40,280 bases of DNA from an uncultured Anaerolineaceae bacterium (GTDB lineage Bacteria > Chloroflexota > Dehalococcoidia > Tepidiformales > Tepidiformaceae): positions 9,472-49,751 of the forward strand of contig CAZCDK010000001.1 in the NCBI GenBank assembly GCA_964497285.1, given 5' to 3'. The notes under the pieces were generated by a model, which was not told where the DNA came from, made no database searches, and worked only from the letters and a program-made list of their open reading frames with translations. The position numbers were made by a program, and so were the translations under genes. Shown piece after piece: positions 1,043 to 25,882 of the stretch (position 1 is its first letter; each line of letters opens with the position of its first letter).

Positions 1043-1058
1043 TGTGAATCCTATCACA
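1043..1058. promoter_or_regulatory. Perfect CRP-consensus palindrome TGTGA-ATCCTA-TCACA
   Basis: Read directly from the sequence. It lies in the low-GC intergenic region 168 nt upstream of the acyl-CoA dehydrogenase ATG (1226). Confidence 0.55.
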
Positions 1059-1225: not shown

Positions 1226-2401
1226 ATGGCTATCAACCTTGGAGACAATCCGCACGAGGCAACCTGGCGCAAGGAAGTACGCGACTTCATCGCCAACGAA
1301 ACCCCGGCGGCGATGCGCCAGACTGGCGACGCCGGCGGAGAGGGCGCCTTGTTCGCGCGGGGCCGCGACGCCATGGGGGCGATGCTGGAGTGGCGCAACA
1401 AGATCATCGCGCGCGGCTGGATCGCCCCCGCCTGGCCGAAGAAGTACGGCGGCGCCGGCCTCGGCGTCCTCGAGCAGTTCGTCATGAGCGAGGAGTTTGC
1501 GGAAGCGGGCGTCCCGGGCAACCTCGGCGGCTTCGGCGTCATGATGATCGGCCCGACGCTCATCGAGCACGGCACCGAGGAGCAGAAGGAAGAGCACCTC
1601 ACACGCATCCTCAAGGGTGAAGTGGTCTGGTGCCAGGGCTACAGTGAGCCAGGCGCGGGCAGCGACCTGGCGGCGCTTCAGACGCGCGCCGTCCGTGACG
1701 GCGATGACTACGTGCTCAACGGCCAGAAAATCTGGACGACGGGCGCCCAGTTCTCCGATTGGATGTACATGCTGGCGCGCACCGACCCCGACGCGCCGAA
1801 GCACCGCGGCATTACCTATCTGCTCGTCAACATGAAAAGCCCGGGCGTGACTGTCCGTCCGCTCACGACGCTCGCGGGCGTGCAGACTTTCAACGAGGTG
1901 TTCTTCGAGGACGTGCGCGTGCCCATCCGCAACCGTGTCGGCGAAGAGAACCGCGGCTGGTACGTGGGAACCACGACGCTCGACTTCGAACGCAGTTCCA
2001 TCGGCAGCGCCGTCGGAGTGCGCAAGGCGCTCGAAGCGCTCATCCGCCAGGCCAAAGAAGGTGGCGAGGTCTCGTTCGAGCGCAATCCGCACGTCAAGAC
2101 GGAGTTCGTCGATCGCTGGATCGAGTGCGAAGTGGCCAAGATGCTGAGCTACCGTGTAGTCAACATGCAGGTTCGCGGCCTCATTCCCAACTACGAGGCA
2201 AGCATGTGCAAGCTGTTCTCCAGCGATCTGCAGCAGCGAATCGCGAACCTCAGCATGCACTTGAACGGGATGTACGGGAACGTTCGGGGCAGGGCGGCCA
2301 TGGGGTACATGCAGGCCGTAAGCTCGACCATTGCCGGCGGCACAACAGAAGTGCAGAAGGGGATCATCGCTACTCGCGGCCTGGGGCTCCCGCGCGGATA
2401 G
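1226..2401 (+). CDS. Acyl-CoA dehydrogenase (FadE-like)
   Basis: 391-aa ORF with WCQGYSEPGAGSDLAALQTRAVRDGDDYVLNGQKIWTTG and a C-terminal IAGGTTEVQKGIIA motif, both typical of acyl-CoA dehydrogenases. Close paralogue of 31336..32511. Confidence 0.9.
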   Translation: MAINLGDNPHEATWRKEVRDFIANETPAAMRQTGDAGGEGALFARGRDAMGAMLEWRNKIIARGWIAPAWPKKYGGAGLGVLEQFVMSEEFAEAGVPGNLGGFGVMMIGPTLIEHGTEEQKEEHLTRILKGEVVWCQGYSEPGAGSDLAALQTRAVRDGDDYVLNGQKIWTTGAQFSDWMYMLARTDPDAPKHRGITYLLVNMKSPGVTVRPLTTLAGVQTFNEVFFEDVRVPIRNRVGEENRGWYVGTTTLDFERSSIGSAVGVRKALEALIRQAKEGGEVSFERNPHVKTEFVDRWIECEVAKMLSYRVVNMQVRGLIPNYEASMCKLFSSDLQQRIANLSMHLNGMYGNVRGRAAMGYMQAVSSTIAGGTTEVQKGIIATRGLGLPRG

Positions 2402-2820: not shown

Positions 2821-3573
2821 ATGGATGACGGCGCGGCGCTGGTGGCTGTCCTGGAGCGCTGCCCCTTGCTCGCTGGCCTGGCGACCAGGGAAGTGGCCGA
2901 GATCGCCTCGCTCTGCCGTTTTCACGCCGTCAGCGCGCAAACCGACGTGTTCGTCGAGGGACAGCGCTGCGACGGGCTCTGGGTCCTCGCCAATGGCCGC
3001 GTGCGGCTCTACCACTCGGCGGCAGACGGTCGCCAGCATGTCGTGAGCTTCCGAGGGCCGAGCTCGGCCCTCGAACTCGGCCCCGCGCTTGACCGGAGAA
3101 CCTACACCGCGACCGCGACTGCCCTTGAGGACTGCGTGCTTGTCTTCGTGCCCCGGCCGGTAATCTCCCAGCTCGCTCAAAACTACCCGGTGACCGTTCG
3201 GAACACGATCGACCAGCTGTGCCTCGAATTGCGGCAACGCGACATCGCCACCGCCGTCGCGACCCTCAAGGACGCCCGCGGCCGCATCGGCTGCGCCCTC
3301 CTCCAACTGGCGCGCCAATACGGAGTCGATACTCCGCAGGGATTGCGCATCGGCTTCCGCCTCACGCGCCAGGACATCGCCGACCGGTCGGGCGTGACTA
3401 TCGAGACGGCGATCCGCGTCCTTTCCGACCTGCAGCGCCAGGGGATACTGCGCACGCACGCGCAGATGATCGAAATCCTTGACATGGAGCGACTGCAGGA
3501 CCCGACGAACTGCGGCGAATGCCAGTTCGATTGCTCGGTGTTCGGCCCGAGCCTGTCGCTGACCGGGTCCTAG
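2821..3573 (+). CDS. Crp/Fnr-family transcriptional regulator with a C-terminal Cys cluster
   Basis: ORF 2665..3573. cNMP-binding-like N-terminal domain (LERCPLLAGL...GLWVLANGRVRLY). C-terminal helix-turn-helix (LTRQDIADRSGVTIETAIRVLSDLQRQGIL). ATG 2821 is preceded by GGAGGGA and gives the usual short N-terminus. The tail carries C-G-E-C-Q-F-D-C. Confidence 0.85.
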   Translation: MDDGAALVAVLERCPLLAGLATREVAEIASLCRFHAVSAQTDVFVEGQRCDGLWVLANGRVRLYHSAADGRQHVVSFRGPSSALELGPALDRRTYTATATALEDCVLVFVPRPVISQLAQNYPVTVRNTIDQLCLELRQRDIATAVATLKDARGRIGCALLQLARQYGVDTPQGLRIGFRLTRQDIADRSGVTIETAIRVLSDLQRQGILRTHAQMIEILDMERLQDPTNCGECQFDCSVFGPSLSLTGS

Positions 3574-3658: not shown

Positions 3659-3674
3659 GGTGATCGCCGTCATG
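3659..3674. promoter_or_regulatory. Weak member of the TGA-N6-TCA palindrome family (GGTGA-TCGCCG-TCATG)
   Basis: Read directly from the sequence, 86 nt upstream of the MFS start codon. Only the xxTGA/TCAxx core is symmetric. Confidence 0.3.
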
Positions 3675-5039: not shown

Positions 5040-5055
5040 TATGACAGTCATCATA
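5040..5055. promoter_or_regulatory. Perfect palindrome TATGA-CAGTCA-TCATA (candidate Crp/Fnr-type operator)
   Basis: Read directly from the sequence. It lies between the MFS stop (5025) and alpha1. A hexamer GATGCT (nAnnnT) follows after exactly 21 nt (5077-5082). Confidence 0.65.
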
Positions 5056-5190
5056 CGCCGGAGGCGAGCTATCTTCGATGCTCGCTGACGGTCGTGCCCG
5101 GCCGCGTTGCCCGCTGTCCGGGACGTTTCGGCATTGCCGGCGGCCAGGGCGCCCGTGTGGAACACGCGGACGCGCTTGAAGGAGATTGTG

Positions 5191-7974
5191 ATGGTCCTTG
5201 AATCCGCTGCCAGTCTTCAAGTGAGCTCAGAAGAGCGGTACCGCGAGCGCTGGTCGTGGGACACCGTGAACTGGGCAACCCACTGCATCGACTGCTACCC
5301 CGGCAACTGCCAGATGCGCGTTTATCTCAAGGATGGTCACGTCTTGCGTGAAGAGTCCGCAGGCGTCTACCCCACTGTCCAGGAAGGCGTCCCCGACATG
5401 AACCCGATGGGATGCCAGAAGGGCGTGGGCTGGACGCAGATGCTCGACTCCCAGGAGCGCCTGCTCTACCCGCTCAAGCGAGACGGCGAGCGGGGCTCCG
5501 GGCGGTGGAAGCGGATCAGCTGGGACCAGGCCGCAACGGAGATCGCGGACGCCGTGATCGACGCTGTCCAAGAGCTCGGACCCGAATCAGTGATGGCCCC
5601 ATCGGGCTGCAACCTCGGCACCTGGGGAGCCACGGGACGAGCGCAGTACATGCGCATCATCGGCGGGCTTACAACCGACCTGAACGCGGAGATGAACGAC
5701 TTCAGCCCGGGCCACTACCTGACGTGGGGCACGTTCGACCCGGTTAGCAGCATCGATGATTGGTTCCACGCCGAGCTGACCTTCATCTGGTTCCAGAACC
5801 CGTTCTACACGCGCATTCCGCACATCCACTACGCGCTGGAGAGCCGCTATGCAGGCGGGGAGGTCTGCACCGTTGCGCCCGACGCCTCGCCATCATCGAT
5901 CCACTCCGATTACTACGTGCCGGTGAGGATCGGGAGCGACGCCGCGTTCGCGCTCGGCATGGCCCAGGTTGTCATCGAAGAGGGCCTGGTCAACGAGACC
6001 TTCGTCCGCGAGCAAACCGACCTGCCTCTGCTGGTGAACCCCGCCACAAAACGGTACCTCCGCCAGTCGGACCTTGATGAGGGCGGAAGTGAGGACCAGC
6101 TCTACGCATGGGACGCCATTTCCAACAAGCCAGTTCCGGCACCAAAAGGAACTCTCTTCTGGGGCGCGGCCGCGCCCGCGCTCGAAGGCGAGTGGACCGT
6201 GCAGACGAAGAGCGGGCCGGTGAGGCTGACGACCGTCCATGCGCTGATGCGTGAACGCCTGAAGGAGTACACGCCGGAGAACGCCTCCACCATTTGCGGC
6301 ATCCACCCGGACACCATCCGAACCCTCGCACGCAAGGTTGCGTCAAAGCGAACCAATATCCTGTGCTGTCTCAACAACGCCGGCAAGCACTATCACGGCG
6401 ACCTGATCGAGCGCTCGCAACTGCTCCTCCTTGCGCTGACAGGCAACTGGGGACGGCACGGCACAGGCGTGCGCGCCTGGCTCAGTGGCCTCATGGACGG
6501 CTGGTTTACACCGCTGGCGAAGACGAAGCGAGGGCCCCAGGAACTGAGCGCAATGCTCGACACCATGGAACAGATGGTCGGCATGATTCAAGGCCAGGAT
6601 CCGACCCTCACCCGGGCCCAACTGGCGATCATGCAGGCGAAGATGCCCGGCCAGGGGCAGGGCACCGGGTTCGTACCGCCCGTATTCTGGTGGTATCGCC
6701 ACGCAGGCTACAAGGACGCATGGCAACGTCGTGAATGGCACGACCCGAGCATGGTGCGCGAGTTCGACGACTACTTCCAGGAAGCCGTCGCCAAGGGGTG
6801 GTGGCAGGGTGTCGACCTGCCGCGAGAGAACCAGCCCACGCGCGTCGTGATCGAGTGCGGCGGGAACTTCGTCCGCCGGACTCGCGGCGGCGGCAAGATG
6901 TTGCTTCAGCACCTCTTTCCAGGGCTAAAGATGGTGGCCACGCTCGACGTGCGCATGAGCGGGACGGCGATGCTGTCGGACATCGTCCTGCCGATTGCCC
7001 ACCAGTACGAGAAGCTTGGCTTCGGCATTCCAAGCACGCACACGATGAACCTCACCTTCAGCGATAAGTCGGTGGAACCGCCCGGCGAGGCAGTCGACGA
7101 GTGGGAGGCGTTCCGGCGGCTGGCGGAAAAGCTCGAAGAACGCGCCCGCGCCCGGGGAGTGCAGGTCTACAGCAACGCCCTCGGCGGCCAGCACGACCTC
7201 CAGAAAGCCCACAGCACGTTCACCGCCAACGGCCTGTGGGTCGACACGGAGGCCATGTTCGATGAGATGATCCGCGACAGCGCCCTCATCGGAACGCTGC
7301 CCCCCGACGCAAGCCTGGAAGAGGTGCGCCGGAAGGGGTTCTTCCGCTTCCAGGGACTCGGCATCTCGGCGCGGGCACTCGCACAGGCGACCGACCCCCA
7401 ACCGGACGAGACATTCGTTCCGTTCCGCAACCACGTCGAGAAGGGCGAACCCTATCCAACCCTCTGCCGGCGCGCCCAGTTCCTCATCGAACACGAGTGG
7501 TTCATCGAGGCCGACGAGCATCTGCCCCGGCACAAGGACGCCCCCGCGATGGGCGGCAGCTACCCGTTCCTGCTTACAAGCGGCCACAACCGCTGGAGCA
7601 TCCATTCACTCAACACGGCCAATCACCTCATGCTGGATACCCACCGGGGCACCCCGCACCTTGTGATGATCAAGCTCGATGCAGACCCACTTGGGATCGT
7701 CGACAACGAGACGGTTCGCGTCCACAACGACCAGGGCGACTTCGAGGTGCCGGTCAAGATCTCGCCAACGGCACAGCCCGGCCAGGTGATTGTCTACAAC
7801 GGCTTCGACACCTACCAGTTCCCCAGGTGGGCGTCCGTCAACGACGCCGAACCGGGCATGATCAAGTGGTTGCACCTGGCCGGTGGCTACGGGCATTTGC
7901 GCTACTGGGCGACGGAATGGCAGCCGTGCGCAGTGATGCGGGGAACACGCGTGGGAATCACCAGGCGCCCCTGA
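5191..7974 (+). CDS. Molybdopterin oxidoreductase catalytic subunit, type II DMSO-reductase family (NarG/EbdA-like), paralogue alpha1
   Basis: ORF 5107..7974. ATG 5191 is preceded by GAAGGAG. The N-terminus YRERWSWD..THCIDCYPGNC..NPMGCQKG is a NarG-like FS0 cluster motif. MNDF provides the candidate Asp ligand for Mo. At 927 aa it is in the EbdA/SerA/DdhA size class. No twin-arginine signal. Confidence 0.9.
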   Translation: MVLESAASLQVSSEERYRERWSWDTVNWATHCIDCYPGNCQMRVYLKDGHVLREESAGVYPTVQEGVPDMNPMGCQKGVGWTQMLDSQERLLYPLKRDGERGSGRWKRISWDQAATEIADAVIDAVQELGPESVMAPSGCNLGTWGATGRAQYMRIIGGLTTDLNAEMNDFSPGHYLTWGTFDPVSSIDDWFHAELTFIWFQNPFYTRIPHIHYALESRYAGGEVCTVAPDASPSSIHSDYYVPVRIGSDAAFALGMAQVVIEEGLVNETFVREQTDLPLLVNPATKRYLRQSDLDEGGSEDQLYAWDAISNKPVPAPKGTLFWGAAAPALEGEWTVQTKSGPVRLTTVHALMRERLKEYTPENASTICGIHPDTIRTLARKVASKRTNILCCLNNAGKHYHGDLIERSQLLLLALTGNWGRHGTGVRAWLSGLMDGWFTPLAKTKRGPQELSAMLDTMEQMVGMIQGQDPTLTRAQLAIMQAKMPGQGQGTGFVPPVFWWYRHAGYKDAWQRREWHDPSMVREFDDYFQEAVAKGWWQGVDLPRENQPTRVVIECGGNFVRRTRGGGKMLLQHLFPGLKMVATLDVRMSGTAMLSDIVLPIAHQYEKLGFGIPSTHTMNLTFSDKSVEPPGEAVDEWEAFRRLAEKLEERARARGVQVYSNALGGQHDLQKAHSTFTANGLWVDTEAMFDEMIRDSALIGTLPPDASLEEVRRKGFFRFQGLGISARALAQATDPQPDETFVPFRNHVEKGEPYPTLCRRAQFLIEHEWFIEADEHLPRHKDAPAMGGSYPFLLTSGHNRWSIHSLNTANHLMLDTHRGTPHLVMIKLDADPLGIVDNETVRVHNDQGDFEVPVKISPTAQPGQVIVYNGFDTYQFPRWASVNDAEPGMIKWLHLAGGYGHLRYWATEWQPCAVMRGTRVGITRRP

Positions 7975-7999
7975 AAGGCGGCCGGCAAGAACCCTCGAT

Positions 8000-8032
8000 C
8001 GGCGGGGCGAAAGTGCCCCGCCGCGCTGCTTT
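8000..8032 (+). terminator. GC-rich hairpin after alpha1 (candidate intrinsic terminator)
   Basis: CGGCGGGGC (8000-8008), loop GAAAGT, GCCCCGCCG (8015-8023), followed by CGCTGCTTT. The U-tract is short. Confidence 0.5.
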
Positions 8033-8072
8033 GAAGGGGTCCTCCGACTCCAGATCGGGGGCCCGCCGTCGA

Positions 8073-8088
8073 TATGACGGGAGTCATA
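8073..8088. promoter_or_regulatory. Perfect palindrome TATGA-CGGGAG-TCATA (candidate Crp/Fnr-type operator)
   Basis: Read directly from the sequence. Its centre lies 42.5 nt upstream of the alpha2 ATG. The hexamer GAACAT follows after exactly 21 nt (8110-8115). Confidence 0.65.
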
Positions 8089-8122: not shown

Positions 8123-10924
8123 ATGACTAGCCAAACCCCCATCGAACCCATCTACACGGGCTGGCAGGATCTCTACCGCCAAAAGTGGGACTGGGACGCC
8201 GTCTACTGGGGAACGCATTGCGTTGACTGCTACCCCGGCAACTGCCCGATGCGCGTCTACGTGAAGGACGGCATCGTCTGGCGCGAGGAACAGTCCGGGT
8301 CCTTCGACACGATCCAGCAGGGCGTGCCCGACTTCAACCCCATGGGCTGCCAGAAGGGCGCCTCCTGGAGCCAATCGCTCTACGGCCCCGATCGCGTCAT
8401 GTTCCCGCTGAAGCGCGCCGGCGAGCGCGGCGAAGGCAAGTGGAACCGCATCAGTTGGGATCAGGCTCTGAGCGAGATCGCAGACAAGCTCATCGACGCC
8501 ATCGAGGAACAGGGGCCCCACTCCACCATCCACGAAGGTACGCCGGGGATGGCCACCGCCGCTCCGACCGGCCGGTTCTTCTCGACCATTGGCGGCCTGG
8601 GCACAGACCTCAACGGGTCGATAAACGACTTCTCGATCGGCCTCTACGAGACTTTCGGGAAGTTTAGTCCGGTCTCGTCCGCCGATGACTGGTTCCATTC
8701 GGAAGTCGTGCTCATCTGGCACATGAACCCGGTCTACACCCGGATCCCCTTCTATCACTTCATCGCTGAAGCGCGTTACAACGGGGCCGAGGTCATCAAC
8801 ATCTCGCCCGACGTGAACCCGTCCCATCTCCACGCAGACATGCAGGTGCCAATTCGGGGCGCGTCGGACCAGGCGTTCGGACTCGCGATGGTTCAGGTGA
8901 TGTTCGAAGAGAACATCGCGAACTGGAAGTTCCTGAAGGAGCAGACCGACTTCGGGTACCTCGTGCGCACCGACACCCGCCGCTACCTCCGCCAGACGGA
9001 CGTCGAGGGCCAGGGCCGGGACGACCAGATGTACCAGTGGATTCCCGGCACCGGACTGAAGCTCGCCGACCGCGGCAGCGTCTTCCTCGGGGATGTGGAC
9101 ATCGCGCTGGAAGGCGTCTTCGACGTGAAGCTGGCCGACGGCTCGACCGTCCAGGTCACGCCCGTCTACTCGGTGCTGAAGAAGAAGCTCGACAGCGAGT
9201 ACACGCCCGAGAAACAGCAGGAGATCACCGGGGTCCACCCGGATGTCGTCCGCACAGTCGCCCGCAAGGTGGCAGCCAAGCGGACGAACATCATGCTTGG
9301 CTACAACGCCTGCAAGTTCTATCACGGCGACCTGATCGAGCGCGTACAGTGCCTCGTTCTCGCCGCCAGCGGGAATTGGGGCAAGCACGGGACCGGCATC
9401 CGCTGCTGGGCCGCCGGCATGCACGACGGCCTTTTCATCTCCTCCAACAAGCCCGGACCCGGCGCGGCCAACACGGAGATCATCCTCGCGGGCCGCGACG
9501 CTGCCGTGGCAGCAATGAAGGCAACCGATCCGACAATGACCACCGAGATCGCGGTGCGCGAGCTCGGTATGCTCGCCTCACGCTTCGAGATGGGTCCGGC
9601 CAACAGCCCCACGGGGTCGTCCACCATCCCGGCGATGATGTGGTACTTCCAGGGCGGCTATGACAAGCGCTGGAACACCCCCGGCTGGGGCGACGAGTCG
9701 CTCCCACGAAAGTTCGACGACTACTTCAACGAGGCCATCGAAAAGGGCTGGTGGCTCGGCTTGGACAAGCCGCGGCCGGAAAACCCCCCACGCGTGCTCA
9801 TTGAGTGCGGCGGAAACATGCTGCGGCGCACTCGCGGAGGCAAGGCGGCACTCCTGCCCACGCTTTGGCCCAAGCTCAGCGCGATCGTGACCATCGACTT
9901 CCGCATGAGCCAGACGGCGCTCTACGCGGACTATTTCCTCCCCGCGGCCCAGCACTATGAGAAGGTCTCGTTCCACATCCCTACGCCTCACGTGATGAAC
10001 CTCACGTTCTCCGACAAGGCGGCGCAGCCGGCAGGCGAAGCCAGGAACGAGTGGGAGATCTACTCCTCGCTGCTGGAGAAGCTCGCGGAACGGGCCCAGG
10101 CGCGCGGGCTCTCGGAATACACCGACAAGCGCGGCTACACCCGAAAATACGGCGAGTTGGCGTCCTACTACTCCATGAACGGGTACCTCCTCGACGAGGA
10201 CAAGATGGCCGACGAAGCCGTTCGTGACTCGGCGTTGGCGGGAACGCTGCCCATGGGCACGAACCTCAAGACCATGCGCGAGAAGGGCCACGTACGCTTC
10301 ATCGACTGGGGCCTCACGCCGATGGCGCTTGCCCAGGCTTCCCCGATTTCCGCGACCGAAACGCATGTTCCGTTCCGCGACAACACCGAGTCTGGGCATC
10401 CCTTCCCCACGTACGCGCGGCGCGCGCAGTTCTACATCGACCACGAATGGTTCCTGGAGGCAGGCGAAGAACTCCCCGTTTGGAAGCCGAACCCCAAGAT
10501 GGGCGGCGACTATCCCCTGGGTCTCACCTCCGGACACAATCGCTGGTCCATCCACGCCATGAACCAGAGCAACAACGTCATCCTCGGCACCCACCGCGGC
10601 GAACCCGACGTCTCGATCAATCCCGACGACGCGGCCGAGCGAGGCGTGAAGGACGGGGATCTCATCCGCGTCTTCAACGACGTGAGTTCCTTCAAGGTTC
10701 GGGCCAGGGTGGCCCCAAACGTGAAGCCGGGCCAGGTCATCTCCTACAACGGCTGGGCCGGCTTCCAGTACACGGACTGGTCGGGCGCGAACGAGATCGA
10801 GCCCGGAATGGTCAAGTGGATCGGGCTGGCCGGGGGCTATGGCCACCTGCGCCACTTGGGCACGGAGTGGCAGCCGGTTCCCAGCGATCGCTGGGTCCGC
10901 TGCGACTTCGAGAAGGTCAACTAG
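8123..10924 (+). CDS. Molybdopterin oxidoreductase catalytic subunit, type II DMSO-reductase family, paralogue alpha2
   Basis: 933-aa ORF. YRQKWDWD..THCVDCYPGNC..NPMGCQKG FS0 motif and INDF candidate Asp ligand. Collinear with alpha1 over its whole length. No Tat motif, and no Shine-Dalgarno sequence visible upstream. Confidence 0.9.
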   Translation: MTSQTPIEPIYTGWQDLYRQKWDWDAVYWGTHCVDCYPGNCPMRVYVKDGIVWREEQSGSFDTIQQGVPDFNPMGCQKGASWSQSLYGPDRVMFPLKRAGERGEGKWNRISWDQALSEIADKLIDAIEEQGPHSTIHEGTPGMATAAPTGRFFSTIGGLGTDLNGSINDFSIGLYETFGKFSPVSSADDWFHSEVVLIWHMNPVYTRIPFYHFIAEARYNGAEVINISPDVNPSHLHADMQVPIRGASDQAFGLAMVQVMFEENIANWKFLKEQTDFGYLVRTDTRRYLRQTDVEGQGRDDQMYQWIPGTGLKLADRGSVFLGDVDIALEGVFDVKLADGSTVQVTPVYSVLKKKLDSEYTPEKQQEITGVHPDVVRTVARKVAAKRTNIMLGYNACKFYHGDLIERVQCLVLAASGNWGKHGTGIRCWAAGMHDGLFISSNKPGPGAANTEIILAGRDAAVAAMKATDPTMTTEIAVRELGMLASRFEMGPANSPTGSSTIPAMMWYFQGGYDKRWNTPGWGDESLPRKFDDYFNEAIEKGWWLGLDKPRPENPPRVLIECGGNMLRRTRGGKAALLPTLWPKLSAIVTIDFRMSQTALYADYFLPAAQHYEKVSFHIPTPHVMNLTFSDKAAQPAGEARNEWEIYSSLLEKLAERAQARGLSEYTDKRGYTRKYGELASYYSMNGYLLDEDKMADEAVRDSALAGTLPMGTNLKTMREKGHVRFIDWGLTPMALAQASPISATETHVPFRDNTESGHPFPTYARRAQFYIDHEWFLEAGEELPVWKPNPKMGGDYPLGLTSGHNRWSIHAMNQSNNVILGTHRGEPDVSINPDDAAERGVKDGDLIRVFNDVSSFKVRARVAPNVKPGQVISYNGWAGFQYTDWSGANEIEPGMVKWIGLAGGYGHLRHLGTEWQPVPSDRWVRCDFEKVN

Positions 10925-10940
10925 GAGGAAGAGGGACACG

Positions 10941-11513
10941 ATGAAAGTCGCAAAGGTGAACGCAGGATCCGACCTCGCCGACCCGGCCGCGCAGGCCTGG
11001 AGCAGCGTGGCCGCGGAAGCGGTATCACTCGCTCCCGTGGCGCTTGCTGCTCAGCCGACGGAGTACATCCGCGAGGCCTGGGCCAGCCGCCCCTACGGCC
11101 AGACAGCCGAGGCGAAGGTGGCCGTCGCCTCCGACGGCAGCAAGCTCTATGTGCGCGTGGAGTGGGCCGACGACGCCAGGCCGAACACCGAATTCCAGGA
11201 CGCGGTCGGCGCCGTCCTCGGCGACGGCACCCTCGCCACCCTCGGAGACGCGAAGGCTCCACTCACGTTGTGGTATTGGGAAAACGGCCGCGGTGCCCTC
11301 AACCTCGTCGCCAAGGGACCGGGCGTGTTTGGCAAGGCCGACGCCGGAGCCGTCAGCGGGGCTGGTGCAATCAGCGACGGGAAGTGGGCCGCTGTCCTGA
11401 GCGGACCGGCCTCGGCCGCCAACGGCAAACTCGGAATCGCCGTGTGGAACGGCTCGAACGAAGAACGGGCGGGCCTCGCCGCCGTCAGCCGCGCCTGGCT
11501 GCCGCTCGAGTAG
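10941..11513 (+). CDS. EB_dh/DOMON-like gamma subunit homologue with no possible haem ligands (gamma1)
   Basis: ATG 10941 follows AGGAGGAAGAGGG. The 190-aa product aligns by eye with gamma2 (QPTEYIREAW / QPSAYVQKAW; LWYW / AWHW; GIAVWNGSNEERAGL / GIAVWSGAASERAGL). No signal peptide. Apart from the initiator Met it has no Met, His or Cys. Confidence 0.8.
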   Translation: MKVAKVNAGSDLADPAAQAWSSVAAEAVSLAPVALAAQPTEYIREAWASRPYGQTAEAKVAVASDGSKLYVRVEWADDARPNTEFQDAVGAVLGDGTLATLGDAKAPLTLWYWENGRGALNLVAKGPGVFGKADAGAVSGAGAISDGKWAAVLSGPASAANGKLGIAVWNGSNEERAGLAAVSRAWLPLE

Positions 11514-11531
11514 GCTCAAGGAGTTACAACG

Positions 11532-12566
11532 ATGACTGCAAACGGAACGCGCCAGATCGCCTGGGTCTTCGACCTCAACAAGTGCATCGGCTGCCAGACA
11601 TGTTCGGTGGCGTGCAAAGTCCTCTGGACCCGCGACGAGGGTGAGAAGCACGAGTGGTGGTGCTCAGTGAACACCCAGCCCGGCCTGGGCACTCCCAAGA
11701 ACTGGGAACAGATGGGCGGCGGTGTCGATCCGAAGTCGGGCAAGCCCGCGGCGGGCCACCAGCCCACCCGCGGTGAGTTCGGCGGCGGCTTCGACTTCAA
11801 CTACTACGAGGTCTTCTACGGCGGCACCGCCGGCAAGGCTCACCTTGAACCGCAGGCCCCACGCGAAGACCGCTGGGCCATGAACTGGGACGAGGACCAG
11901 GGCGCCGGCGAGTGGCCCAACTCGTACTTCTTCTACCTGCCTCGCCTGTGCAACCACTGCACCAATCCCACCTGCATGGAGGCTTGCCCCACGGGCGCCC
12001 TCAGCAAGCGGGACGACGGCCTCGTCTTGCGCGATGAGGACGTCTGCATGGGCGATCGCTTCTGCATGGAAGCCTGCCCCTACAAGAAAATCTACTTCAA
12101 CTACGAGCGCCACGTTTCCCAGCACTGCATCGGCTGCTTCCCTCGCATCGAAGCGGGCGTGGCCCCGGCTTGCGTGCGCCAGTGCCCGGGTCGCGCCGTC
12201 TTCGTCGGCTACATCGACGAGGAGGGCACCCCCGTCCACGACCTCGTGAAGAAGTGGAAGATCGCCCTTCCGCTGCATGCAGAGGCCGGCACCGGACCGA
12301 ACGTCTTTTACGTTCCCCCGCTCTCGCCCTACCGGTTGAACGACGACTTCAGTATCGACTACCAGACGCCGCGCATCCCGCGCGAGTACCTGGAATCGCT
12401 CTTCGGCCCGGAGGTCAATGGGGCCCTTTCCACGCTCAGCGGCGAGATGCAGAAGGTCCGCGAGGGCGGATCATCGGACATGCTCAAGACACTCATCGCC
12501 TACAAGTGGAAGGAATTGCTCGGACCCTTCACCGTCGATCCCGCCGACATCGTCCAAACGGTCTAG
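11532..12566 (+). CDS. Iron-sulfur beta subunit (NarH/EbdB-like, four-cluster ferredoxin), beta1
   Basis: Four cluster motifs: CIGCQTCSVAC, CNHCTNPTCMEACP, CMGDRFCMEACP (spacing of a 3Fe-4S group) and CIGCFPRIEAGVAPACVRQCP. The WW..N..PG insertion is typical of type II beta subunits. RBS AAGGAG. Confidence 0.9.
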   Translation: MTANGTRQIAWVFDLNKCIGCQTCSVACKVLWTRDEGEKHEWWCSVNTQPGLGTPKNWEQMGGGVDPKSGKPAAGHQPTRGEFGGGFDFNYYEVFYGGTAGKAHLEPQAPREDRWAMNWDEDQGAGEWPNSYFFYLPRLCNHCTNPTCMEACPTGALSKRDDGLVLRDEDVCMGDRFCMEACPYKKIYFNYERHVSQHCIGCFPRIEAGVAPACVRQCPGRAVFVGYIDEEGTPVHDLVKKWKIALPLHAEAGTGPNVFYVPPLSPYRLNDDFSIDYQTPRIPREYLESLFGPEVNGALSTLSGEMQKVREGGSSDMLKTLIAYKWKELLGPFTVDPADIVQTV

Positions 12567-12581
12567 CCAGGAGGCGCCGCC

Positions 12582-13268
12582 ATGTTCGTCTACTCACTCG
12601 CCGGTCTCCAGATCGACGGCGAAGCCAGCCAGGAGATGGAGCTTCCGGACAACGAAACCACGGCTCGCCTGGGTGTCTACCAGGTTCTGGCCCGTCTGAT
12701 GGCGTGTCCCGACGCCGACTCCCATGGGGCGGCCTTGGGCGGCGAGTGGCCCGGGCGGTTGGCCCACGATGCCAAGCTGCTTCCGTTTTCCTTCGATTTC
12801 GAGACCGCCTCGATCGATGCGGCAGTCTCCGAATCCAATTTCCAGGCCGAATACCTGCGGCTGTTCGAAGTTGGATCCGGCGAAGGCGGGCCCGGAGCGC
12901 CGCTGTTCGGCGGAGTGTATGGCAGCGGCGACCGGATGAAGAAGCTCGAAGAGGTGGTTCGCTTCTACGAGTACTTCGGACTGAAGGCATCGGCCGAGGA
13001 TCCGCGGCCGGCGGACCACCTCGCCACTGAGATGGAATTCATGAAGTTCTTGACGCTCAAGGAGGCGACCTCCGCGTCGCCCCGGCTGCAGGCCTCGTTC
13101 CGGCGGGCGCAGCATGACTTCTTGGAGCGCCAGCTGACTACGTGGCTACCCGAGCTTTCGAACCGGACCAGGGCGCAGAACCCAATGCCGTTCTGGCAGT
13201 GGGCCGTGGACCGGGCGAACGCCTTTGCCGGGGCCGACTTGGCCTACGTTCAGAGCGTGATGGGGTAG
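12582..13268 (+). CDS. TorD/NarJ-family maturation chaperone (delta1)
   Basis: 228 aa. YQVLARL...EYLRLFEVG....P..GGVY...RFYEYFGL....PADHLATEMEFMKFL matches the nitrate-reductase delta/TorD family pattern. RBS AGGAGG. Confidence 0.85.
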   Translation: MFVYSLAGLQIDGEASQEMELPDNETTARLGVYQVLARLMACPDADSHGAALGGEWPGRLAHDAKLLPFSFDFETASIDAAVSESNFQAEYLRLFEVGSGEGGPGAPLFGGVYGSGDRMKKLEEVVRFYEYFGLKASAEDPRPADHLATEMEFMKFLTLKEATSASPRLQASFRRAQHDFLERQLTTWLPELSNRTRAQNPMPFWQWAVDRANAFAGADLAYVQSVMG

Positions 13269-13316
13269 GACACACCAGCCCAATCCGTTCTCGGCTAGCA
13301 GACAGAAGCGAGACCT

Positions 13317-16061
13317 ATGACTATTCCTGCTGACGGGCAGTACCGGCAGCGCTGGAGTTGGGATCGTGTGACCTTCGGGACGCACTGTCTCAACTGCCTC
13401 GCCACCTGCCCCTACCGTGTCTACTCCCGCAACGGGAAAGTGCTGTTCGAAGAACCGGTCGGGACTTTCCCCCAAATCGACGAGGGCGTACCGGACTTCA
13501 ATCCCATGTCCTGCCAGAAGGGTAGCGCTTGGAGTGTCCAGCTCGACACGCCCGACCGTCTGAAGTACCCCCTGCGTCGCAAAGGAGAGCGCGGCTCAGG
13601 GGAGTGGGAGCGGATCTCCTGGGACGAAGCACTCACGGAGATCGCCGATGCCCTGATCGAGGCGATCGACTTGGAGGGCCCTGAGTCCATCGTCTTCGAG
13701 GAGACGGTCGAAGGCGGACTGCTCACGCAGGCCCCCTATCTCCGCTTTGCCGGCATGCTCGGCGCGGTCACCCTCGATGCGAATGGCCTCATCAACGACT
13801 TCCCCGCAGGGCACCACATCACCTGGGGCAAATTCTCCTGCGCGAGCTCCATGGACGACACGTTCCATTCCGAGCTCCTCCTCATCTGGCACTCGAACCC
13901 CGCCTACACGTGGATTCCTTACGCGCACTTCATCACCGAGGCTCGGTACCACGGATCGAAGGTCGTGTGCATCGCGCCCGACTTCAGCCCCTCCGCGCCC
14001 ATGGCAGACGCCTATGTCCCGATCAAGGTCGCGTCGGACGCCGCGTTCGCGCTCGCAATGTGCCAGGTGATCATCTCCGAGGGCCTGTTCGACCGGGACT
14101 TCGTCCTCTCCCAAACAGATCTGCCACTGCTGGTGAACCCGGCTACGCGCCGCTTCCTTCGTGGTTCGGAGGTCACAGCCGGCGAACGCGAGGACCAGTT
14201 CTACTGGTGGGACGCCGCCTCCGCGAAGATCGAGCAGGCCCCGCGCGGGACCCTGGAGATCGAGGATGTCAGCCCGGCCCTCGAAGGGCGCTGGCGCGTC
14301 ACGACGCTCGATGGCGAAGTCGAAGTCACGACGGTCTGGGAACTGCTCAAGGAACACCTGGGGCAATACACCCCCGAGGCGGTGAGCGGCATCTGCGGCG
14401 TCAGCCCACAGGTCATGCGCGACCTTGCCCGGGAAGTGGCCTCCAAGCGGACGAAGATCCTGGAAGGCTTCAACACACCCAAGTTCTACCACGGCGATCT
14501 GATGGAACGGGCGATGATCCTGCTCCTCGGCCTGACCGCGAACTGGGGGCGCAAGGGCACAGGCATCCAGGGGCTCGCACTCGCCGGCATGGACGGCTAC
14601 ATGCTCTTCGGCATGAAGCAGAAGCGCGGAGTGGCCGAGACCATTCGCGTTATGGAAGGCGTCGAGGGGGCGGTCGAGGCCCTGCGCTCACAGGACCCCG
14701 AGGCGTCGGACGAGATCCTCGGCTACGAACTCCTCCAGCGCGGCCTCGTGTCAGGCACCGCCAGCCCGCCAGCTTTCTTCCACTTCTATCACTGCGGCTA
14801 CAAAGACACGTGGAACACGCCCCAGTGGTCAGATCCATCGATGACGCGCTCGTTCGAGGACTACGTCGGCGACGCCGTGCGACGCGGGTGGTGGGGCGGC
14901 CTGGTGAAGCCCGGGCCGAGTTCCGATCCCCAGGTGCTCTTCATCGTGGCGACCAACCCGATCAGGCGCCAGCGCGGCGGCACGGACACACTCGCCAAGA
15001 CTCTCTGGCCCAAGCTGGAAAAGATCGTCGTTGTCGAAAACCGGATGAGTGCCACCGCATTGCAGGCGGACATCGTGCTTCCGGCGGCGATGCAATACGA
15101 GCGCATCAATCTCCAGTACGCCATCACGCACTCCTTCTCGGTCGGGTTTTCAGACAAGGCCGTGGAGCCCCAGGGCGAAGCGAAGACTGAGTGGGAGATC
15201 TTCAAGGCGCTCTCGAAGGTGATGCAGGAGCGCGCCATCGCCCAGGGCGTGGTCGAGTACCTCGACGGCCGGCGGCAACCCAAGCGGCTTGATGGCCTGT
15301 ACAACTCCTTCACCCTCAACGGTGCCTACGAGAACGAGGAAACCGTCGTCGAGGAGTGGCTTCGCGACAGCATCGAGGCGGGGACGTTGCCCGAAAACGG
15401 CACCCTCAGCCATCTTCGCGAGAATGGGACAGCGCGGTTCATCGATCTTGGCATGTTCGCGCCCGGTCTCTCGCTGGCGGCCGATGTCGAGTCGGACCAG
15501 ACGGACACAGCATTCCAGTGGTACGTCAACGACTTCGGGCCCTACCCGACGCTCACCCGCCGGTCACAGTCTCTGATCGACCACCCGTGGTTCGCCGAGG
15601 CAGGCGAGGACTTGCCCACGCACAAGGACAACCCGAAGCAGGGCGGCGACTACCCGCTCGTGATCACGAGCGGCCATTCCCGGTGGACAGTCCACGCCGT
15701 GTCGATGGGAAACCACGTGCTGCACGGCACGCACCGGGGCGAGCCACTCGGGATCTTGAACGCCTCGGACGCCGCCGCGCGCGGCATCGCGGACGGTGAC
15801 GTAATCGAGGTGTTCAACGACAGGGGCAACTACAATATTCGATGCCGCGTGGCTCCCCGGGTGCGTCCTGGCCAGGTGATCGTGTACAACGGCTGGGAGC
15901 CGCACATGTTCAAGGACTGGAAGGGCGCCAATGAAGTGGAGCCCGGCATGGTCAAGTGGCTGCATCTTGTGAGCCGCTACGGGCATTTGCGTTACCTGCC
16001 GTTCGGCTGGCAGCCAGTCCCTGCCGATCGGTCCGTCTTTGTGGATGTGAGGAAAGCATGA
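13317..16061 (+). CDS. Molybdopterin oxidoreductase catalytic subunit, type II DMSO-reductase family, paralogue alpha3
   Basis: 914-aa ORF. YRQRWSWD..THCLNCLATC..NPMSCQKG FS0 motif and INDF candidate Asp ligand. No Tat motif. Its TGA stop overlaps the next gene's ATG (ATGA). Confidence 0.9.
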   Translation: MTIPADGQYRQRWSWDRVTFGTHCLNCLATCPYRVYSRNGKVLFEEPVGTFPQIDEGVPDFNPMSCQKGSAWSVQLDTPDRLKYPLRRKGERGSGEWERISWDEALTEIADALIEAIDLEGPESIVFEETVEGGLLTQAPYLRFAGMLGAVTLDANGLINDFPAGHHITWGKFSCASSMDDTFHSELLLIWHSNPAYTWIPYAHFITEARYHGSKVVCIAPDFSPSAPMADAYVPIKVASDAAFALAMCQVIISEGLFDRDFVLSQTDLPLLVNPATRRFLRGSEVTAGEREDQFYWWDAASAKIEQAPRGTLEIEDVSPALEGRWRVTTLDGEVEVTTVWELLKEHLGQYTPEAVSGICGVSPQVMRDLAREVASKRTKILEGFNTPKFYHGDLMERAMILLLGLTANWGRKGTGIQGLALAGMDGYMLFGMKQKRGVAETIRVMEGVEGAVEALRSQDPEASDEILGYELLQRGLVSGTASPPAFFHFYHCGYKDTWNTPQWSDPSMTRSFEDYVGDAVRRGWWGGLVKPGPSSDPQVLFIVATNPIRRQRGGTDTLAKTLWPKLEKIVVVENRMSATALQADIVLPAAMQYERINLQYAITHSFSVGFSDKAVEPQGEAKTEWEIFKALSKVMQERAIAQGVVEYLDGRRQPKRLDGLYNSFTLNGAYENEETVVEEWLRDSIEAGTLPENGTLSHLRENGTARFIDLGMFAPGLSLAADVESDQTDTAFQWYVNDFGPYPTLTRRSQSLIDHPWFAEAGEDLPTHKDNPKQGGDYPLVITSGHSRWTVHAVSMGNHVLHGTHRGEPLGILNASDAAARGIADGDVIEVFNDRGNYNIRCRVAPRVRPGQVIVYNGWEPHMFKDWKGANEVEPGMVKWLHLVSRYGHLRYLPFGWQPVPADRSVFVDVRKA

Positions 16062-22055: not shown

Positions 22056-22077
22056 CGTAGTCCTCCTCCCGCCTGTC

Positions 22078-25592: not shown

Positions 25593-25649
25593 CTTCGTGA
25601 AACCGTCGCAACGGCATGAGCCGTTTCTTGCCCGGGCGAATGCCGGGGT

Positions 25650-25793: not shown

Positions 25794-25882
25794 CCTTGGT
25801 GATACTCCTGCGGGGATTCGCGAACGTACGCAGCGAGGTGCGATTCGTTTCACGGACGGTACGACCGCGCCGGGCCAGCCTC

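What the first reader, a model, noticed from the sequence alone, without database searches (positions are those of the whole stretch)
5040..8088. AT-rich 16-bp palindrome family TATGA-N6-TCATA found only in front of island operons
Perfect copies are TATGACAGTCATCATA (5040-5055, before alpha1), TATGACGGGAGTCATA (8073-8088, before alpha2) and TATGATCGCGGTCATA (25988-26003, before the ACAD-thiolase-CoA-transferase operon). A near-perfect copy is CATGATCTGAATCATA (25883-25898, before the small ORF and alpha4). Related sites are TGTGAATCCTATCACA (1043-1058), a weak GGTGATCGCCGTCATG (3659-3674) and a half-site at 19916-19931. From base composition alone, a specified AT-rich 10-nt pattern should occur far less than once in a high-GC 40-kb window. 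My scan by eye for TATGA and TCATA found the paired form only in intergenic DNA. The xxTGA-N6-TCAxx architecture is the recognition pattern of Crp/Fnr-family dimers, and such a regulator is encoded at 2821..3573. This defines a candidate regulon tying the molybdoenzyme operons to the acyl-CoA operon.
Basis: partly seen in the sequence, partly recalled or inferred. Interest (0 to 1): 0.75.

Follow-up and report, generated by a model that had tools for sequence, protein, structure and literature searches.

The report
Crp/Fnr activator boxes before anaerobic-hydroxylase operons
The repeated 16-bp palindrome is real and is most likely the docking site of the neighbouring Crp/Fnr-type regulator. 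That regulator appears to switch on several molybdenum-hydroxylase operons and an acyl-CoA operon in an uncultured Chloroflexota bacterium: a previously undescribed branch of a well-known regulator family, not a new kind of system.

Summary
TATGA-N6-TCATA occurs perfectly three times in the window (5040, 8073, 25988) against 0 in 100 shuffles, with a one-mismatch copy at 25883. All four are intergenic.

Related genomes sharpen the consensus to TATGAC-N4-GTCATA. In 502 kb around orthologues of the window's Crp/Fnr gene from about 30 Chloroflexota genomes there are 34 perfect and 53 one-mismatch-or-better sites, against 0 and 0.15 in shuffles. None lies in an alignable coding segment. They sit upstream of ethylbenzene-dehydrogenase-like alpha-subunit genes, and the 4-bp spacer varies freely.

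Loci chosen independently through the acyl-CoA dehydrogenase gene carry the box 61-117 nt before its start codon in 37 of the 67 loci with at least 150 nt of upstream sequence.

A -10 element lies at a fixed distance, which puts the box centre at -41.5/-42.5. That is the classic class II Crp/Fnr activator position. The alpha2 mRNA is predicted to be leaderless.

Distant Crp/Fnr proteins (26-35% identity) that share the recognition helix VETAIRV carry the same box next to their own genes, in unrelated gene contexts.

The regulator is an unnamed Crp/Fnr clade with an invariant C-terminal C-x2-C-x3-C motif, possibly an Fe-S oxygen sensor. Binding, activation and the signal are all inferred, not shown.

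The parts
5040..5055 (+). Box 1, TATGACAGTCATCATA, in the alpha1 promoter. The predicted -10 is GATGCT at 5077-5082, the predicted transcription start is near 5089, and the alpha1 ATG is at 5191 behind an AAGGAG ribosome-binding site.
   Evidence: Exact match. Cross-genome matrix score 20.4 against a shuffle maximum of 11.2. Orthologous sites lie before alpha1 in L001, L003, L004, L005 and L028 with different spacers. Start codon.
8073..8088 (+). Box 2, TATGACGGGAGTCATA, in the alpha2 operon promoter. The predicted -10 is AACATT at 8111-8116. The ATG at 8123 is 50 nt from the site start, so the mRNA is predicted to be leaderless with the box centre at -42.5.
   Evidence: score 29.2. The 50-51 nt spacing to the ATG recurs in 10 or more orthologous loci.
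25988..26003 (+). Box 3, TATGATCGCGGTCATA, in the promoter of the ACAD-nitroreductase-thiolase-CoA-transferase operon. The predicted -10 is TAGCCT at 26025-26030 and the ATG is at 26062.
   Evidence: score 21.8. A box lies 61-117 nt before the ATG of ACAD_b homologues in 37 of the 67 loci with enough upstream sequence, mostly the closer homologues.
25883..25898 (-). Box 4, CATGATCTGAATCATA, in the divergent promoter for the small Lys-rich ORF (25793..25650) and the alpha4-gamma-beta-delta operon. The predicted -10 is TACCGT on the minus strand at 25861..25856.
   Evidence: The matrix score of 6.9 is within noise. However, the closest relatives L084/L085 have two boxes 104 nt apart at the same place, CATGATCTGCGTCATA and TATGATCACTGTCATA.
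3659..3674 (+). Degenerate box GGTGATCGCCGTCATG between the regulator gene and the MFS transporter gene. This is a candidate weak site.
   Evidence: Matrix score 9.7, within noise. GTGATCKCCRTCATG is nevertheless a conserved island in an otherwise diverged spacer in window, L001, L003, L004, L005 and L028. In L006-type loci a good box at this position precedes an ABC transporter.
2821..3573 (+). Crp/Fnr-family regulator gene (an alternative start at 2665 is possible). The recognition helix is TIETAIRVL. C134, C158 and the C-terminal C231-x2-C234-x3-C238 are invariant.
   Evidence: Pfam PF00027, PF13545 and PF00325. Alignment of 20 homologues. AF2 model with pLDDT 89.8. Foldseek top hits are MtbCRP and GlxR. 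No NCBIfam subfamily reaches its cut-off.
5191..7974 (+). alpha1, an EBDH-like Mo-bisMGD catalytic subunit and a predicted target.
   Evidence: Pfam Molybdopterin and Molydop_binding. TIGR03479 (DMSO_red_II_alp) and the EbdA model are the best NCBIfam hits, both below their cut-offs.
8123..16061 (+). Predicted target operon: alpha2, gamma (EB_dh), beta (4Fe-4S), delta (NarJ-like) and alpha3.
   Evidence: The same gene order occurs in L004, L005, L014, L017 and L032.
20372..25793 (-). Predicted target operon: small ORF, alpha4, gamma, beta and delta.
   Evidence: The divergent arrangement with ACAD_b is conserved in L084, L085, L091, L092, L095 and L105.
26062..30428 (+). Predicted target operon: ACAD, nitroreductase-like protein, thiolase-like protein and CoA-transferase.
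   Evidence: The operon is conserved in many loci.
1043..1058 (+). A separate CRP-type box, TGTGAATCCTATCACA, upstream of ACAD_a (1226..2401), the gene that precedes the regulator gene. It is not a member of the TATGAC family.
   Evidence: An identical or near-identical site lies at the same position in L001, L002, L004, L005 and L028.

Best explanation
TATGAC-N4-GTCATA is the DNA box of a Chloroflexota-specific clade of Crp/Fnr transcription factors. In this window the factor is the one encoded at 2821-3573.

**Proposed mechanism.**
- A dimer binds the palindrome, with one helix-turn-helix (recognition helix T-I/V-E-T-A-I-R-V) per half-site.
- The box is centred about 41.5-42.5 bp upstream of the predicted transcription start and takes the place of a -35 element.
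- From there the dimer recruits RNA polymerase to a TGn-extended or TAnnnT-type -10. This is class II activation.

**Predicted regulon.**
- A transporter gene.
- Four ethylbenzene-dehydrogenase-like molybdoenzyme alpha genes with their beta, gamma and delta partners.
- The ACAD-nitroreductase-thiolase-CoA-transferase operon.

Together these look like one co-induced anaerobic hydroxylation plus acyl-CoA catabolic module. The alpha2 operon is predicted to be transcribed as a leaderless mRNA.

**Signal.** It is probably redox or oxygen, sensed through a metal or Fe-S centre held by the invariant C-terminal C-x2-C-x3-C plus C134 or D141, by analogy with Bacillus Fnr.

**What is shown.** Site existence, enrichment, cross-species conservation, fixed geometry, and co-occurrence with the regulator and its helix.

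**What is inferred.** Binding, activation rather than repression, transcription starts, and the signal.
For: - **Enrichment.** 3 perfect sites against 0 expected in the window. 34 perfect and 53 sites with at most 1 mismatch in 502 kb of orthologous loci, against 0 and 0.15 in shuffles.
- **Footprinting.** Half-sites are invariant while the 4-bp spacer and the flanks vary. None of the 53 sites lies in an alignable coding segment.
- **Targets.** Sites precede alpha1- and alpha2-type genes and a transporter next to the regulator gene in about 30 genomes. They also precede ACAD_b homologues in loci chosen without reference to the regulator.
- **Geometry, alpha-type sites.** Among 39 non-redundant sites: T36 in 23/39, G37 in 19/39, A40 in 28/39 and T44 in 27/39. 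This is an extended -10 at positions 39-44.
- **Geometry, independent ACAD set.** Among 35 non-redundant sites: T38 in 17/35, A39 in 19/35 and T43 in 19/35. The two sets give box centres of -42.5 and -41.5. No -35 signal is visible.
- **Leaderless alpha2.** The alpha2 ATG lies exactly 50-51 nt from the site start in many species.
- **Motif tracks the protein.**
  - Anaerolineae regulators about 30% identical, with helix TVETAIRVM and no EBDH genes nearby, carry TATGACCTGCRTCATA 51-112 nt before their own gene.
  - Other Crp/Fnr proteins 26-29% identical, with helix TTVETAIRV, sit next to ACAD_b; in L111 and L113 TATGCGCSCCGTCATA lies between the two genes.
  - Relatives with helix ESAIR lack the site.
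- **Protein.** Crp/Fnr domains and fold. E and R of the recognition helix are invariant. C134, C158, C231, C234 and C238 are invariant.
- **Precedent for the sensor.** Bacillus Fnr uses C-terminal cysteines plus an aspartate as [4Fe-4S] ligands (PMC3520743).
Against: - There is no experimental binding, transcription-start or expression data. Every promoter element is predicted.
- The regulator-centred loci were selected through the regulator gene, so co-occurrence there is partly built in. The ACAD-selected and out-group loci ease this concern but do not remove it.
- Some proteins with the same helix have no site within 1 mismatch nearby (for example L036, L052, L063). Helix-box covariation in the ETTIR group is not clean.
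- Box 4 and the 3659 site are within matrix noise in the window.
- A box overlapping the -35 position could equally serve a repressor.
- The Fe-S idea rests on a motif resemblance.
- No complete genome was scanned, so sites inside genes elsewhere cannot be excluded.
Confidence: 0.72

Rival explanations
1. The same protein binds the same boxes but acts as a repressor. By occupying the -35 region it blocks RNA polymerase until an inducer, such as a substrate or its CoA ester, releases it.
For: The box covers roughly -50 to -35, which overlaps where a -35 hexamer would lie. Catabolic operons are often controlled by repressors. Crp/Fnr proteins can repress at some promoters (general knowledge).
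Against: No -35-like conservation is seen; positions 17-35 carry at most 0.38 bits each. The -10 is of the extended TGn type, typical of promoters that lack a -35. The rigid single-phase spacing of -41.5/-42.5, kept across dozens of species and three promoter types, is the signature of class II activation. Repressor operators tolerate variable positions.
Confidence: 0.13
2. The boxes are real transcription-factor sites, but they are bound by a different protein encoded elsewhere in the genome. Candidates are another Crp/Fnr paralogue with the same helix, or an unrelated dimeric factor such as the GntR-like ORF at 19984-20343. On this view the adjacent regulator is only a neighbour.
For: Several distinct Crp/Fnr lineages share the VETAIRV helix, so a paralogue could compete for the sites. 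A second box type, TGTGA-N6-TCACA, near the regulator locus implies that more than one Crp-type factor acts here. TATGAC/GTCATA also loosely fits the GT-N-AC cores of GntR sites (from memory).
Against: The only gene that accompanies the box in all three contexts is a Crp/Fnr gene with this helix. The contexts are EBDH loci, Anaerolineae loci without EBDH genes, and ACAD loci with a different Crp/Fnr neighbour. The GntR-like ORF has no detectable homologue in any fetched locus. The TGA-N6-TCA core and the -41.5 placement are Crp/Fnr hallmarks.
Confidence: 0.1
3. The palindromes are not regulatory. They would be chance AT-rich words, or remnants copied along with duplicated paralogous promoters or a small repeat element.
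For: The alpha genes are paralogues, so upstream DNA could have been duplicated with them.
Against: Expected counts are 0 in the window and 0.15 in 502 kb, against 3 and 53 observed. The flanks and the 4-bp spacer differ between copies while the half-sites stay fixed. The box also precedes non-paralogous genes: ACAD, an ABC transporter and the regulator genes themselves.
Confidence: 0.02

Closest known systems
E. coli FNR and its class II promoters (box TTGAT-N4-ATCAA centred at -41.5)
   Same: The protein has the same two-domain Crp/Fnr architecture. The palindrome is 6-4-6 / 5-4-5 with a TGA-N6-TCA core. The E and R of the recognition helix are kept (FNR xVETxSR, here IETAIR). The box lies at about -41.5 and replaces the -35. 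The controlled genes encode anaerobic molybdoenzymes of the DMSO-reductase family.
   Different: The half-site is TATGAC rather than TTGAT. The FNR discriminator Ser is Ile here. There is no N-terminal Cys cluster; the invariant cysteines are C-terminal and in the central helix. The NCBIfam Fnr model scores 51 against a cut-off of 228. The phylum is Chloroflexota.
Bacillus subtilis / B. cereus Fnr (C-terminal [4Fe-4S] ligated by three Cys plus Asp141)
   Same: There is a C-terminal extension after the HTH with a C-x2-C-x(3-4)-C motif. A conserved acidic or Cys residue sits in the central helix: D141 is at least 90% conserved and C134 is invariant here (PMC3520743).
   Different: The spacing is x3, not x4. 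Bacillus Fnr recognises TGTGA-N6-TCACA (from memory).
AadR (Rhodopseudomonas palustris) and AcpR (Azoarcus sp. CIB): Fnr-type activators of anaerobic aromatic-degradation operons (recalled from memory)
   Same: A Crp/Fnr activator switches on an oxygen-sensitive anaerobic catabolic pathway from a -41.5 box. This is the closest functional analogy to a regulon of anaerobic hydroxylases plus CoA-dependent degradation.
   Different: Those regulators are proteobacterial FNR orthologues with N-terminal Cys clusters and FNR-type boxes. Their targets are benzoyl-CoA pathway genes, not EBDH-like enzymes.
CprK (Desulfitobacterium; dehalobox TTAAT-N4-ATTAA) and HbaR: substrate-sensing Crp/Fnr regulators (recalled from memory)
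   Same: These are Crp/Fnr proteins with a non-canonical 5-4-5 box dedicated to one catabolic or respiratory gene cluster and encoded next to it. Effector binding in the beta-barrel could likewise be a pathway substrate here.
   Different: The box sequence and recognition helix differ. There is no evidence here for an organic effector.
cAMP-CRP, M. tuberculosis CRP and GlxR (box TGTGA-N6-TCACA)
   Same: They are the best sequence and structure matches in the PDB (E = 4e-20; TM 0.85/0.93). The box length and core are the same.
   Different: Identity is only 22-27%. The helix is RE(T/S)xxR/K against IETAIR. Box position 2 is A rather than G. The NCBIfam CRP model scores 60 against a cut-off of 266. 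The phosphate-binding Arg is not invariant in the clade.

Membership tests
Crp/Fnr superfamily of transcription factors (the protein at 2821-3573) | N-terminal cNMP-binding-type beta-barrel plus C-terminal winged HTH | tested here: met
   PF00027 (E = 2.6e-16), PF13545 (E = 2.5e-16) and PF00325 (E = 6e-9), all above their cut-offs.
Crp/Fnr superfamily of transcription factors (the protein at 2821-3573) | CRP-like three-dimensional fold with a long central dimerisation helix | tested here: met
   AF2 model with pLDDT 89.8 and helix 123-149. Foldseek against MtbCRP 4a2u gives E = 3e-20 and TM 0.85/0.93.
Crp/Fnr-type DNA box (the palindromes) | Two-fold symmetric site with a TGA-N6-TCA core, one half-site per monomer | tested here: met
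   TATGAC-N4-GTCATA; positions 2-5 and 12-15 are invariant in 39 non-redundant sites.
Crp/Fnr-type DNA box (the palindromes) | Fixed activator position relative to the promoter (class II, centre near -41.5) | tested here: met
   A conserved -10 lies at site positions 39-44 in the alpha set and 38-43 in the independent ACAD set. Transcription starts are predicted, not measured.
Crp/Fnr-type DNA box (the palindromes) | Specific binding by the cognate regulator | not testable with these tools
   The only support is co-occurrence of the box with the VETAIRV helix in three gene contexts.
FNR proper (E. coli type) | N-terminal Cys cluster (C-x2-C-x5-C plus a fourth Cys) ligating an oxygen-labile [4Fe-4S] | tested here: not met
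   No conserved N-terminal cysteines. The invariant Cys are 134, 158, 231, 234 and 238.
FNR proper (E. coli type) | E--SR recognition helix and TTGAT-N4-ATCAA box; passes the family model | tested here: not met
   The helix is IETAIR and the box is TATGAC-N4-GTCATA. NF008365 scores 51.3 against a cut-off of 228.
cAMP receptor protein (CRP) | RE---R helix, TGTGA-N6-TCACA box; passes the family model | tested here: not met
   The helix and box differ. NF008732 scores 59.9 against a cut-off of 266.
Bacillus-type Fnr | C-terminal extension whose cysteines (C-x2-C-x4-C) plus one Asp ligate a [4Fe-4S] | tested here: inconclusive
   An invariant C-terminal C-x2-C-x3-C is present, and D141 is at least 90% conserved. 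The motif in Bacillus is taken from PMC3520743. The spacing differs by one residue, there was no direct alignment, and the cofactor is untestable here.
Ethylbenzene dehydrogenase / type II DMSO-reductase family (the target alpha genes) | Mo-bisMGD alpha subunit encoded with a 4Fe-4S beta, an EB_dh haem gamma and a NarJ-like delta | tested here: met
   Pfam hits. TIGR03479 and the EbdA model are the top NCBIfam hits, but both are below their cut-offs: 824-916 against 985, and 553-771 against 2000. The genes are therefore EBDH-like, not EbdA equivalogs.

The most novel reading that the evidence does not exclude
A Chloroflexota-specific Crp/Fnr clade senses oxygen or redox state through a C-terminal Fe-S centre of the kind known so far from Bacillus Fnr. 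It has evolved a new DNA specificity (helix IETAIR reading TATGAC-N4-GTCATA). It acts as the master switch of a so far uncharacterised anaerobic, apparently cytoplasmic hydrocarbon or sterol-side-chain hydroxylation plus beta-oxidation pathway, using class II promoters that produce leaderless mRNAs. That would give a defined genetic handle, box plus regulator, for finding and expressing anaerobic C-H hydroxylases across uncultured Chloroflexota.
Probability: 0.35. Interest if true: 0.65.

Novelty: new variant of a known kind. Interest (0 to 1): 0.5.

Why it matters
EBDH-like molybdoenzymes hydroxylate unactivated C-H bonds without oxygen, for example in ethylbenzene, p-cymene and sterol side chains. 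They are of interest for anaerobic hydrocarbon and steroid degradation and for biocatalysis.

I found no report on how they are regulated in Chloroflexota, an abundant and mostly uncultured phylum (literature searches). A conserved box-regulator pair would help in three ways:
- It would define which genes belong to one pathway: a transporter, four alpha subunits, and the ACAD, nitroreductase-like, thiolase and CoA-transferase genes.
- It would predict the inducing condition, probably anoxia.
- It would offer a simple sequence tag for mining further pathway genes in metagenomes.

It would also add a new entry to the Crp/Fnr helix-to-box recognition code, and an example of class II activation at leaderless genes.

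It remains an extension of a very well understood regulatory paradigm, so its value is mainly to specialists.

Tried and rejected
- **Source contig.** Exact look-ups of the window's own proteins to recover a longer contig found nothing on record. No genome-wide scan was therefore possible.
- **Rfam.** A gathering-threshold search of the window and five loci gave no match. E-value searches of the alpha1 leaders gave only a chance hit at E = 0.79. My idea that the conserved leader is a Moco riboswitch is not supported.
- **Literature.** Searches for the motif and for Crp/Fnr regulons in Chloroflexota turned up only primer coincidences and unrelated work.
- **GntR-like ORF (19984-20343).** I considered it as the binding protein and rejected it. 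It has no homologue in any related locus and no NCBIfam hit.
- **Half-site at 19916-19931.** It is not among the top 25 matrix hits, and only a lone TCATA is present.
- **Helix-box covariation.** Actinomycetota relatives with helix ETTIR have yCTGAy-N4-GTCATG sites just downstream of their gene. The pattern is asymmetric and not clean enough to count as a specificity code.
- **Cysteine geometry.** I wanted to measure Cys-Cys distances in the AF2 model, but no coordinates are exposed.
- **-35 element.** I looked for a -35 hexamer between box and -10 and found none.

Full report
**1. The observation**

The pattern TATGA-N6-TCATA matches exactly at 5040-5055, 8073-8088 and 25988-26003. None of 100 dinucleotide-preserving shuffles gives even one match. 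With up to two mismatches there are 7 hits against 2.9 expected. These include CATGATCTGAATCATA at 25883 and TGTGAATCCTATCACA at 1043. The three perfect copies are therefore far beyond chance. The looser copies needed other evidence.

The window is 65% G+C.

**2. Gene map**

The map comes from GC3-filtered ORFs plus Pfam and NCBIfam.

| Coordinates | Strand | Gene |
|---|---|---|
| 31-861 | + | SDR |
| 1226-2401 | + | ACAD_a |
| 2821-3573 | + | Crp/Fnr regulator |
| 3760-5025 | + | MFS transporter |
| 5191-7974 | + | alpha1 |
| 8123-16061 | + | alpha2, gamma, beta, delta, alpha3 |
| 17515-18636 | + | two CopD-like genes |
| 18596-19819 | + | AMP-binding gene |
| 20372-25793 | - | small ORF, alpha4, gamma, beta, delta |
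| 26062-30428 | + | ACAD_b, nitroreductase-like, thiolase-like, CoA-transferase |

- The 'alpha' proteins are type II DMSO-reductase enzymes of the ethylbenzene-dehydrogenase type. Their best NCBIfam models are TIGR03479 and EbdA, both below cut-off.
- All four strong sites, and the weak site at 3659, lie between genes.

**3. Origin**

Homologues of the regulator carry source names such as Dehalococcoidia, Tepidiformaceae, Anaerolinea and Chloroflexi. The related loci are all Chloroflexota MAGs. The window's own contig could not be retrieved.

**4. Conservation around the regulator**

- Syntenic loci L001 (regulator 83% identical) and L003 (93%) keep a box before alpha1 and alpha2, with different central bases. 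This gives the true consensus TATGAC-N4-GTCATA.
- A scan of GTDB species genomes with a regulator alignment returned 29 orthologous loci (at least 50% identity) plus a partial fragment (L071), and 50 more distant ones.
- In nearly every orthologous locus where enough flanking sequence is held, the regulator gene sits beside EBDH-like alpha genes. Boxes precede the alpha1-type gene, the alpha2-type gene and, where present, a transporter gene.
- Counts in 502 kb are 34 perfect sites and 53 with at most 1 mismatch, against 0 and 0.15 in shuffles.
- None of the 53 lies in a segment alignable to a window protein.
- In 39 non-redundant sites the half-site positions are essentially invariant. The spacer and flanks carry little information. 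This is a classical phylogenetic footprint and rules out simple copying of promoter DNA.

**5. The link to the acyl-CoA operon**

I fetched 80 metagenome loci through ACAD_b alone.
- A box lies 61-117 nt before the ACAD_b start codon in 37 of the 67 loci that hold at least 150 nt of upstream sequence. Boxes are concentrated among the closer homologues, those at least about 65% identical.
- The operon ACAD-nitroreductase-thiolase(-CoA-transferase) is conserved. It is often divergent from an alpha4-gamma-beta-delta operon.
- The closest relatives (L084/L085, 88% identical) have two boxes 104 nt apart. This matches 25883 and 25988 in the window, which supports box 4 despite its low matrix score.
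- L020, a regulator-centred locus, also has a box before its ACAD_b homologue.

**6. Promoter geometry**

- Downstream of the 39 alpha-type sites, position 36 is T (23/39), 37 is G (19/39), 40 is A (28/39), 43 is A or T (29/39) and 44 is T (27/39). This reads as an extended -10 (TGn xAxxwT) at site positions 39-44.
- In the independent ACAD set of 35 non-redundant sites, T38, A39 and T43 stand out, giving TAnnnT at positions 38-43.
- With the -10 at -12 to -7, the box centre falls at -42.5 for the alpha set and -41.5 for the ACAD set.
- No -35-like signal is present.
- For alpha2-type genes the ATG lies exactly 50-51 nt from the site start in many species. The predicted transcription start therefore coincides with the A of the ATG, which means a leaderless mRNA.
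- In the window the four promoters fit the same frame:

| Box | Predicted -10 | Coordinates |
|---|---|---|
| 1 (5040) | GATGCT | 5077-5082 |
| 2 (8073) | AACATT | 8111-8116 |
| 3 (25988) | TAGCCT | 26025-26030 |
| 4 (25883) | TACCGT, minus strand | 25861-25856 |

These were read. This is the textbook class II Crp/Fnr arrangement, as known from E. coli CRP and FNR.

**7. Which protein?**

- The adjacent ORF has cNMP_binding plus HTH_Crp_2 domains and a confident CRP-like fold.
- It passes no named NCBIfam subfamily: CRP scores 60 against 266, and Fnr scores 51 against 228.
- Its recognition helix is T-I-E-T-A-I-R-V. The Glu and Arg that read the TGA core in CRP and FNR are invariant. The discriminator positions (R180/G184 in CRP, V208/S212 in FNR) are Ile and Ile (the CRP/FNR numbering is from memory). 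A conserved core with an altered outer half-site is what such a helix predicts.
- The box follows this helix outside the EBDH context:
  - Anaerolineae regulators about 30% identical, with helix TVETAIRVM, have no EBDH genes nearby; a VIT/VWA protein gene lies upstream. They carry TATGACCTGCRTCATA 51-112 nt before their own gene.
  - Other Crp/Fnr proteins 26-29% identical, with no C-terminal cysteines and helix TTVETAIRV, sit next to ACAD_b homologues. In L111 and L113 TATGCGCSCCGTCATA lies between the two genes.
  - Relatives with helix ESAIR lack the site.
- The GntR-like ORF at 19984 has no counterpart in any locus.
- I therefore assign the boxes to the VETAIRV-type Crp/Fnr proteins, and in this window to the one at 2821-3573.

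**8. The signal**

- The clade has invariant C134 and C158 and an invariant C-terminal C231-x2-C234-x3-C238. D141 in the central helix is at least 90% conserved.
- Bacillus Fnr holds an oxygen-labile [4Fe-4S] with three C-terminal cysteines (C-x2-C-x4-C) and Asp141 (PMC3520743).
- By analogy the regulator may be an oxygen or redox sensor. That would suit oxygen-independent hydroxylases.
- This is inference only. A substrate effector, as in CprK or HbaR, is not excluded.

**9.

- **3659-3674.** This is a degenerate box, but GTGATCKCCRTCATG is a conserved island in a diverged spacer before the MFS gene. It is a plausible weak site.
- **1043-1058.** This is a distinct CRP-type TGTGA-N6-TCACA box, conserved before ACAD_a in five relatives. 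TGTGAC-N4-GTCACA lies about 110-120 nt before the regulator gene in four more distant orthologous loci. It could be a second-tier input or an autoregulatory variant. This is unresolved.
- **19916-19931.** Not supported.

**10. Verdict**

What is there is a new branch of a very well known regulator family. It has its own box, a possibly Bacillus-Fnr-like sensor, and a regulon of anaerobic hydroxylases plus acyl-CoA enzymes in uncultured Chloroflexota.

I found no earlier description. The literature library is incomplete, and RegPrecise-type collections could not be checked.

I rate the novelty as a new variant of a known kind and the interest as moderate (0.5). Binding, activation, transcription starts and the signal all remain to be shown.

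Noticed in passing
L006 6046-6175; also L007 14711-14860, L008 9076-9225, L009, L011, L012, L020 11002-11151: A roughly 130-nt leader lies between the box/-10 and the alpha1-type start codon. About 77 nt of it are almost invariant across species whose regulators are only about 60% identical to the window's. The predicted structure has an 11-bp closing stem (CCGGGGYCCTG / CAGGGCCCCGG), inner hairpins, and a second helix that pairs CCUCUUC with the Shine-Dalgarno GGAGAGG. No Rfam family matches, and there is no covariation because the sequences are too similar. It is a candidate new cis-regulatory RNA or riboswitch in front of a molybdoenzyme gene.
   Followed up: partly
window 1043-1058; L001 8423, L002 8328, L004 8281, L005 8291, L028 103; L007 9880, L022 5844, L023 4843, L031 7674: A second, CRP-type box occurs near the regulator locus. 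TGTGAAyCCTATCACA is conserved about 180 nt before ACAD_a, the gene preceding the regulator. TGTGAC-N4-GTCACA lies about 110-120 nt before the regulator gene in more distant orthologous loci. It differs from the main box only at position 2/15 (G instead of A). It may be an input from another Crp-type factor or an autoregulatory variant.
   Followed up: partly
window 8123-8200 (alpha2), 5191-5290 (alpha1), 13317 (alpha3), 25592-25480 minus strand (alpha4): The EBDH-like alpha subunits have no twin-arginine signal peptide. alpha2 begins MTSQTPIEPIYTGWQDLYRQKWDWD, and alpha4 has only an SLRRLK remnant. Characterised EBDH-type enzymes are periplasmic, so these may work in the cytoplasm, as NarG does.
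   Followed up: no
L111 1835-2563, L113 233-1177, L100 2540-3253, L147 1145-2233: A different Crp/Fnr lineage sits directly upstream of ACAD_b homologues. It is 26-29% identical to the window's regulator and has no C-terminal cysteines, but it has the same recognition helix TTVETAIRV. In L111 and L113 TATGCGCSCCGTCATA lies between the two genes. The same box is apparently used by regulators with different sensor modules.
   Followed up: partly
L006 2156-5983; L024 1183-2991: In many orthologous loci the gene after the regulator and its box is an ABC transporter (an SBP_bac_5 binding protein plus two permeases) instead of the window's MFS gene. The uptake system has been swapped while the regulatory box is retained.
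   Followed up: partly
window 25650-25793 (minus strand): A 47-codon Lys/Ala-rich ORF (MFAPSLNLDLSKLAQAEEPPASTKKVAAKGAKGRKDASAADKTAKKS) with a good AGGAG ribosome-binding site lies between box 4 and alpha4. It has no Pfam hit, and its conservation in relatives was not checked.
   Followed up: no
L060 10744, L066 10735, L075 7142, L081 1179, L055 1448 and others: Actinomycetota Crp/Fnr relatives with helix TVETTIRVL have an asymmetric yCTGAy-N4-GTCATG site 50-125 nt (216 nt in L055) downstream of their own gene. This is a possible sister box specificity.
   Followed up: partly
window 15956-17515, 30466-31080, 37445-38089: Three sizeable ORFs in or beside the island have no Pfam or NCBIfam match. 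orf519 and orf204 have homologues in related loci (for example L138 and L084), so they are probably real genes of unknown function linked to the pathway.
   Followed up: no
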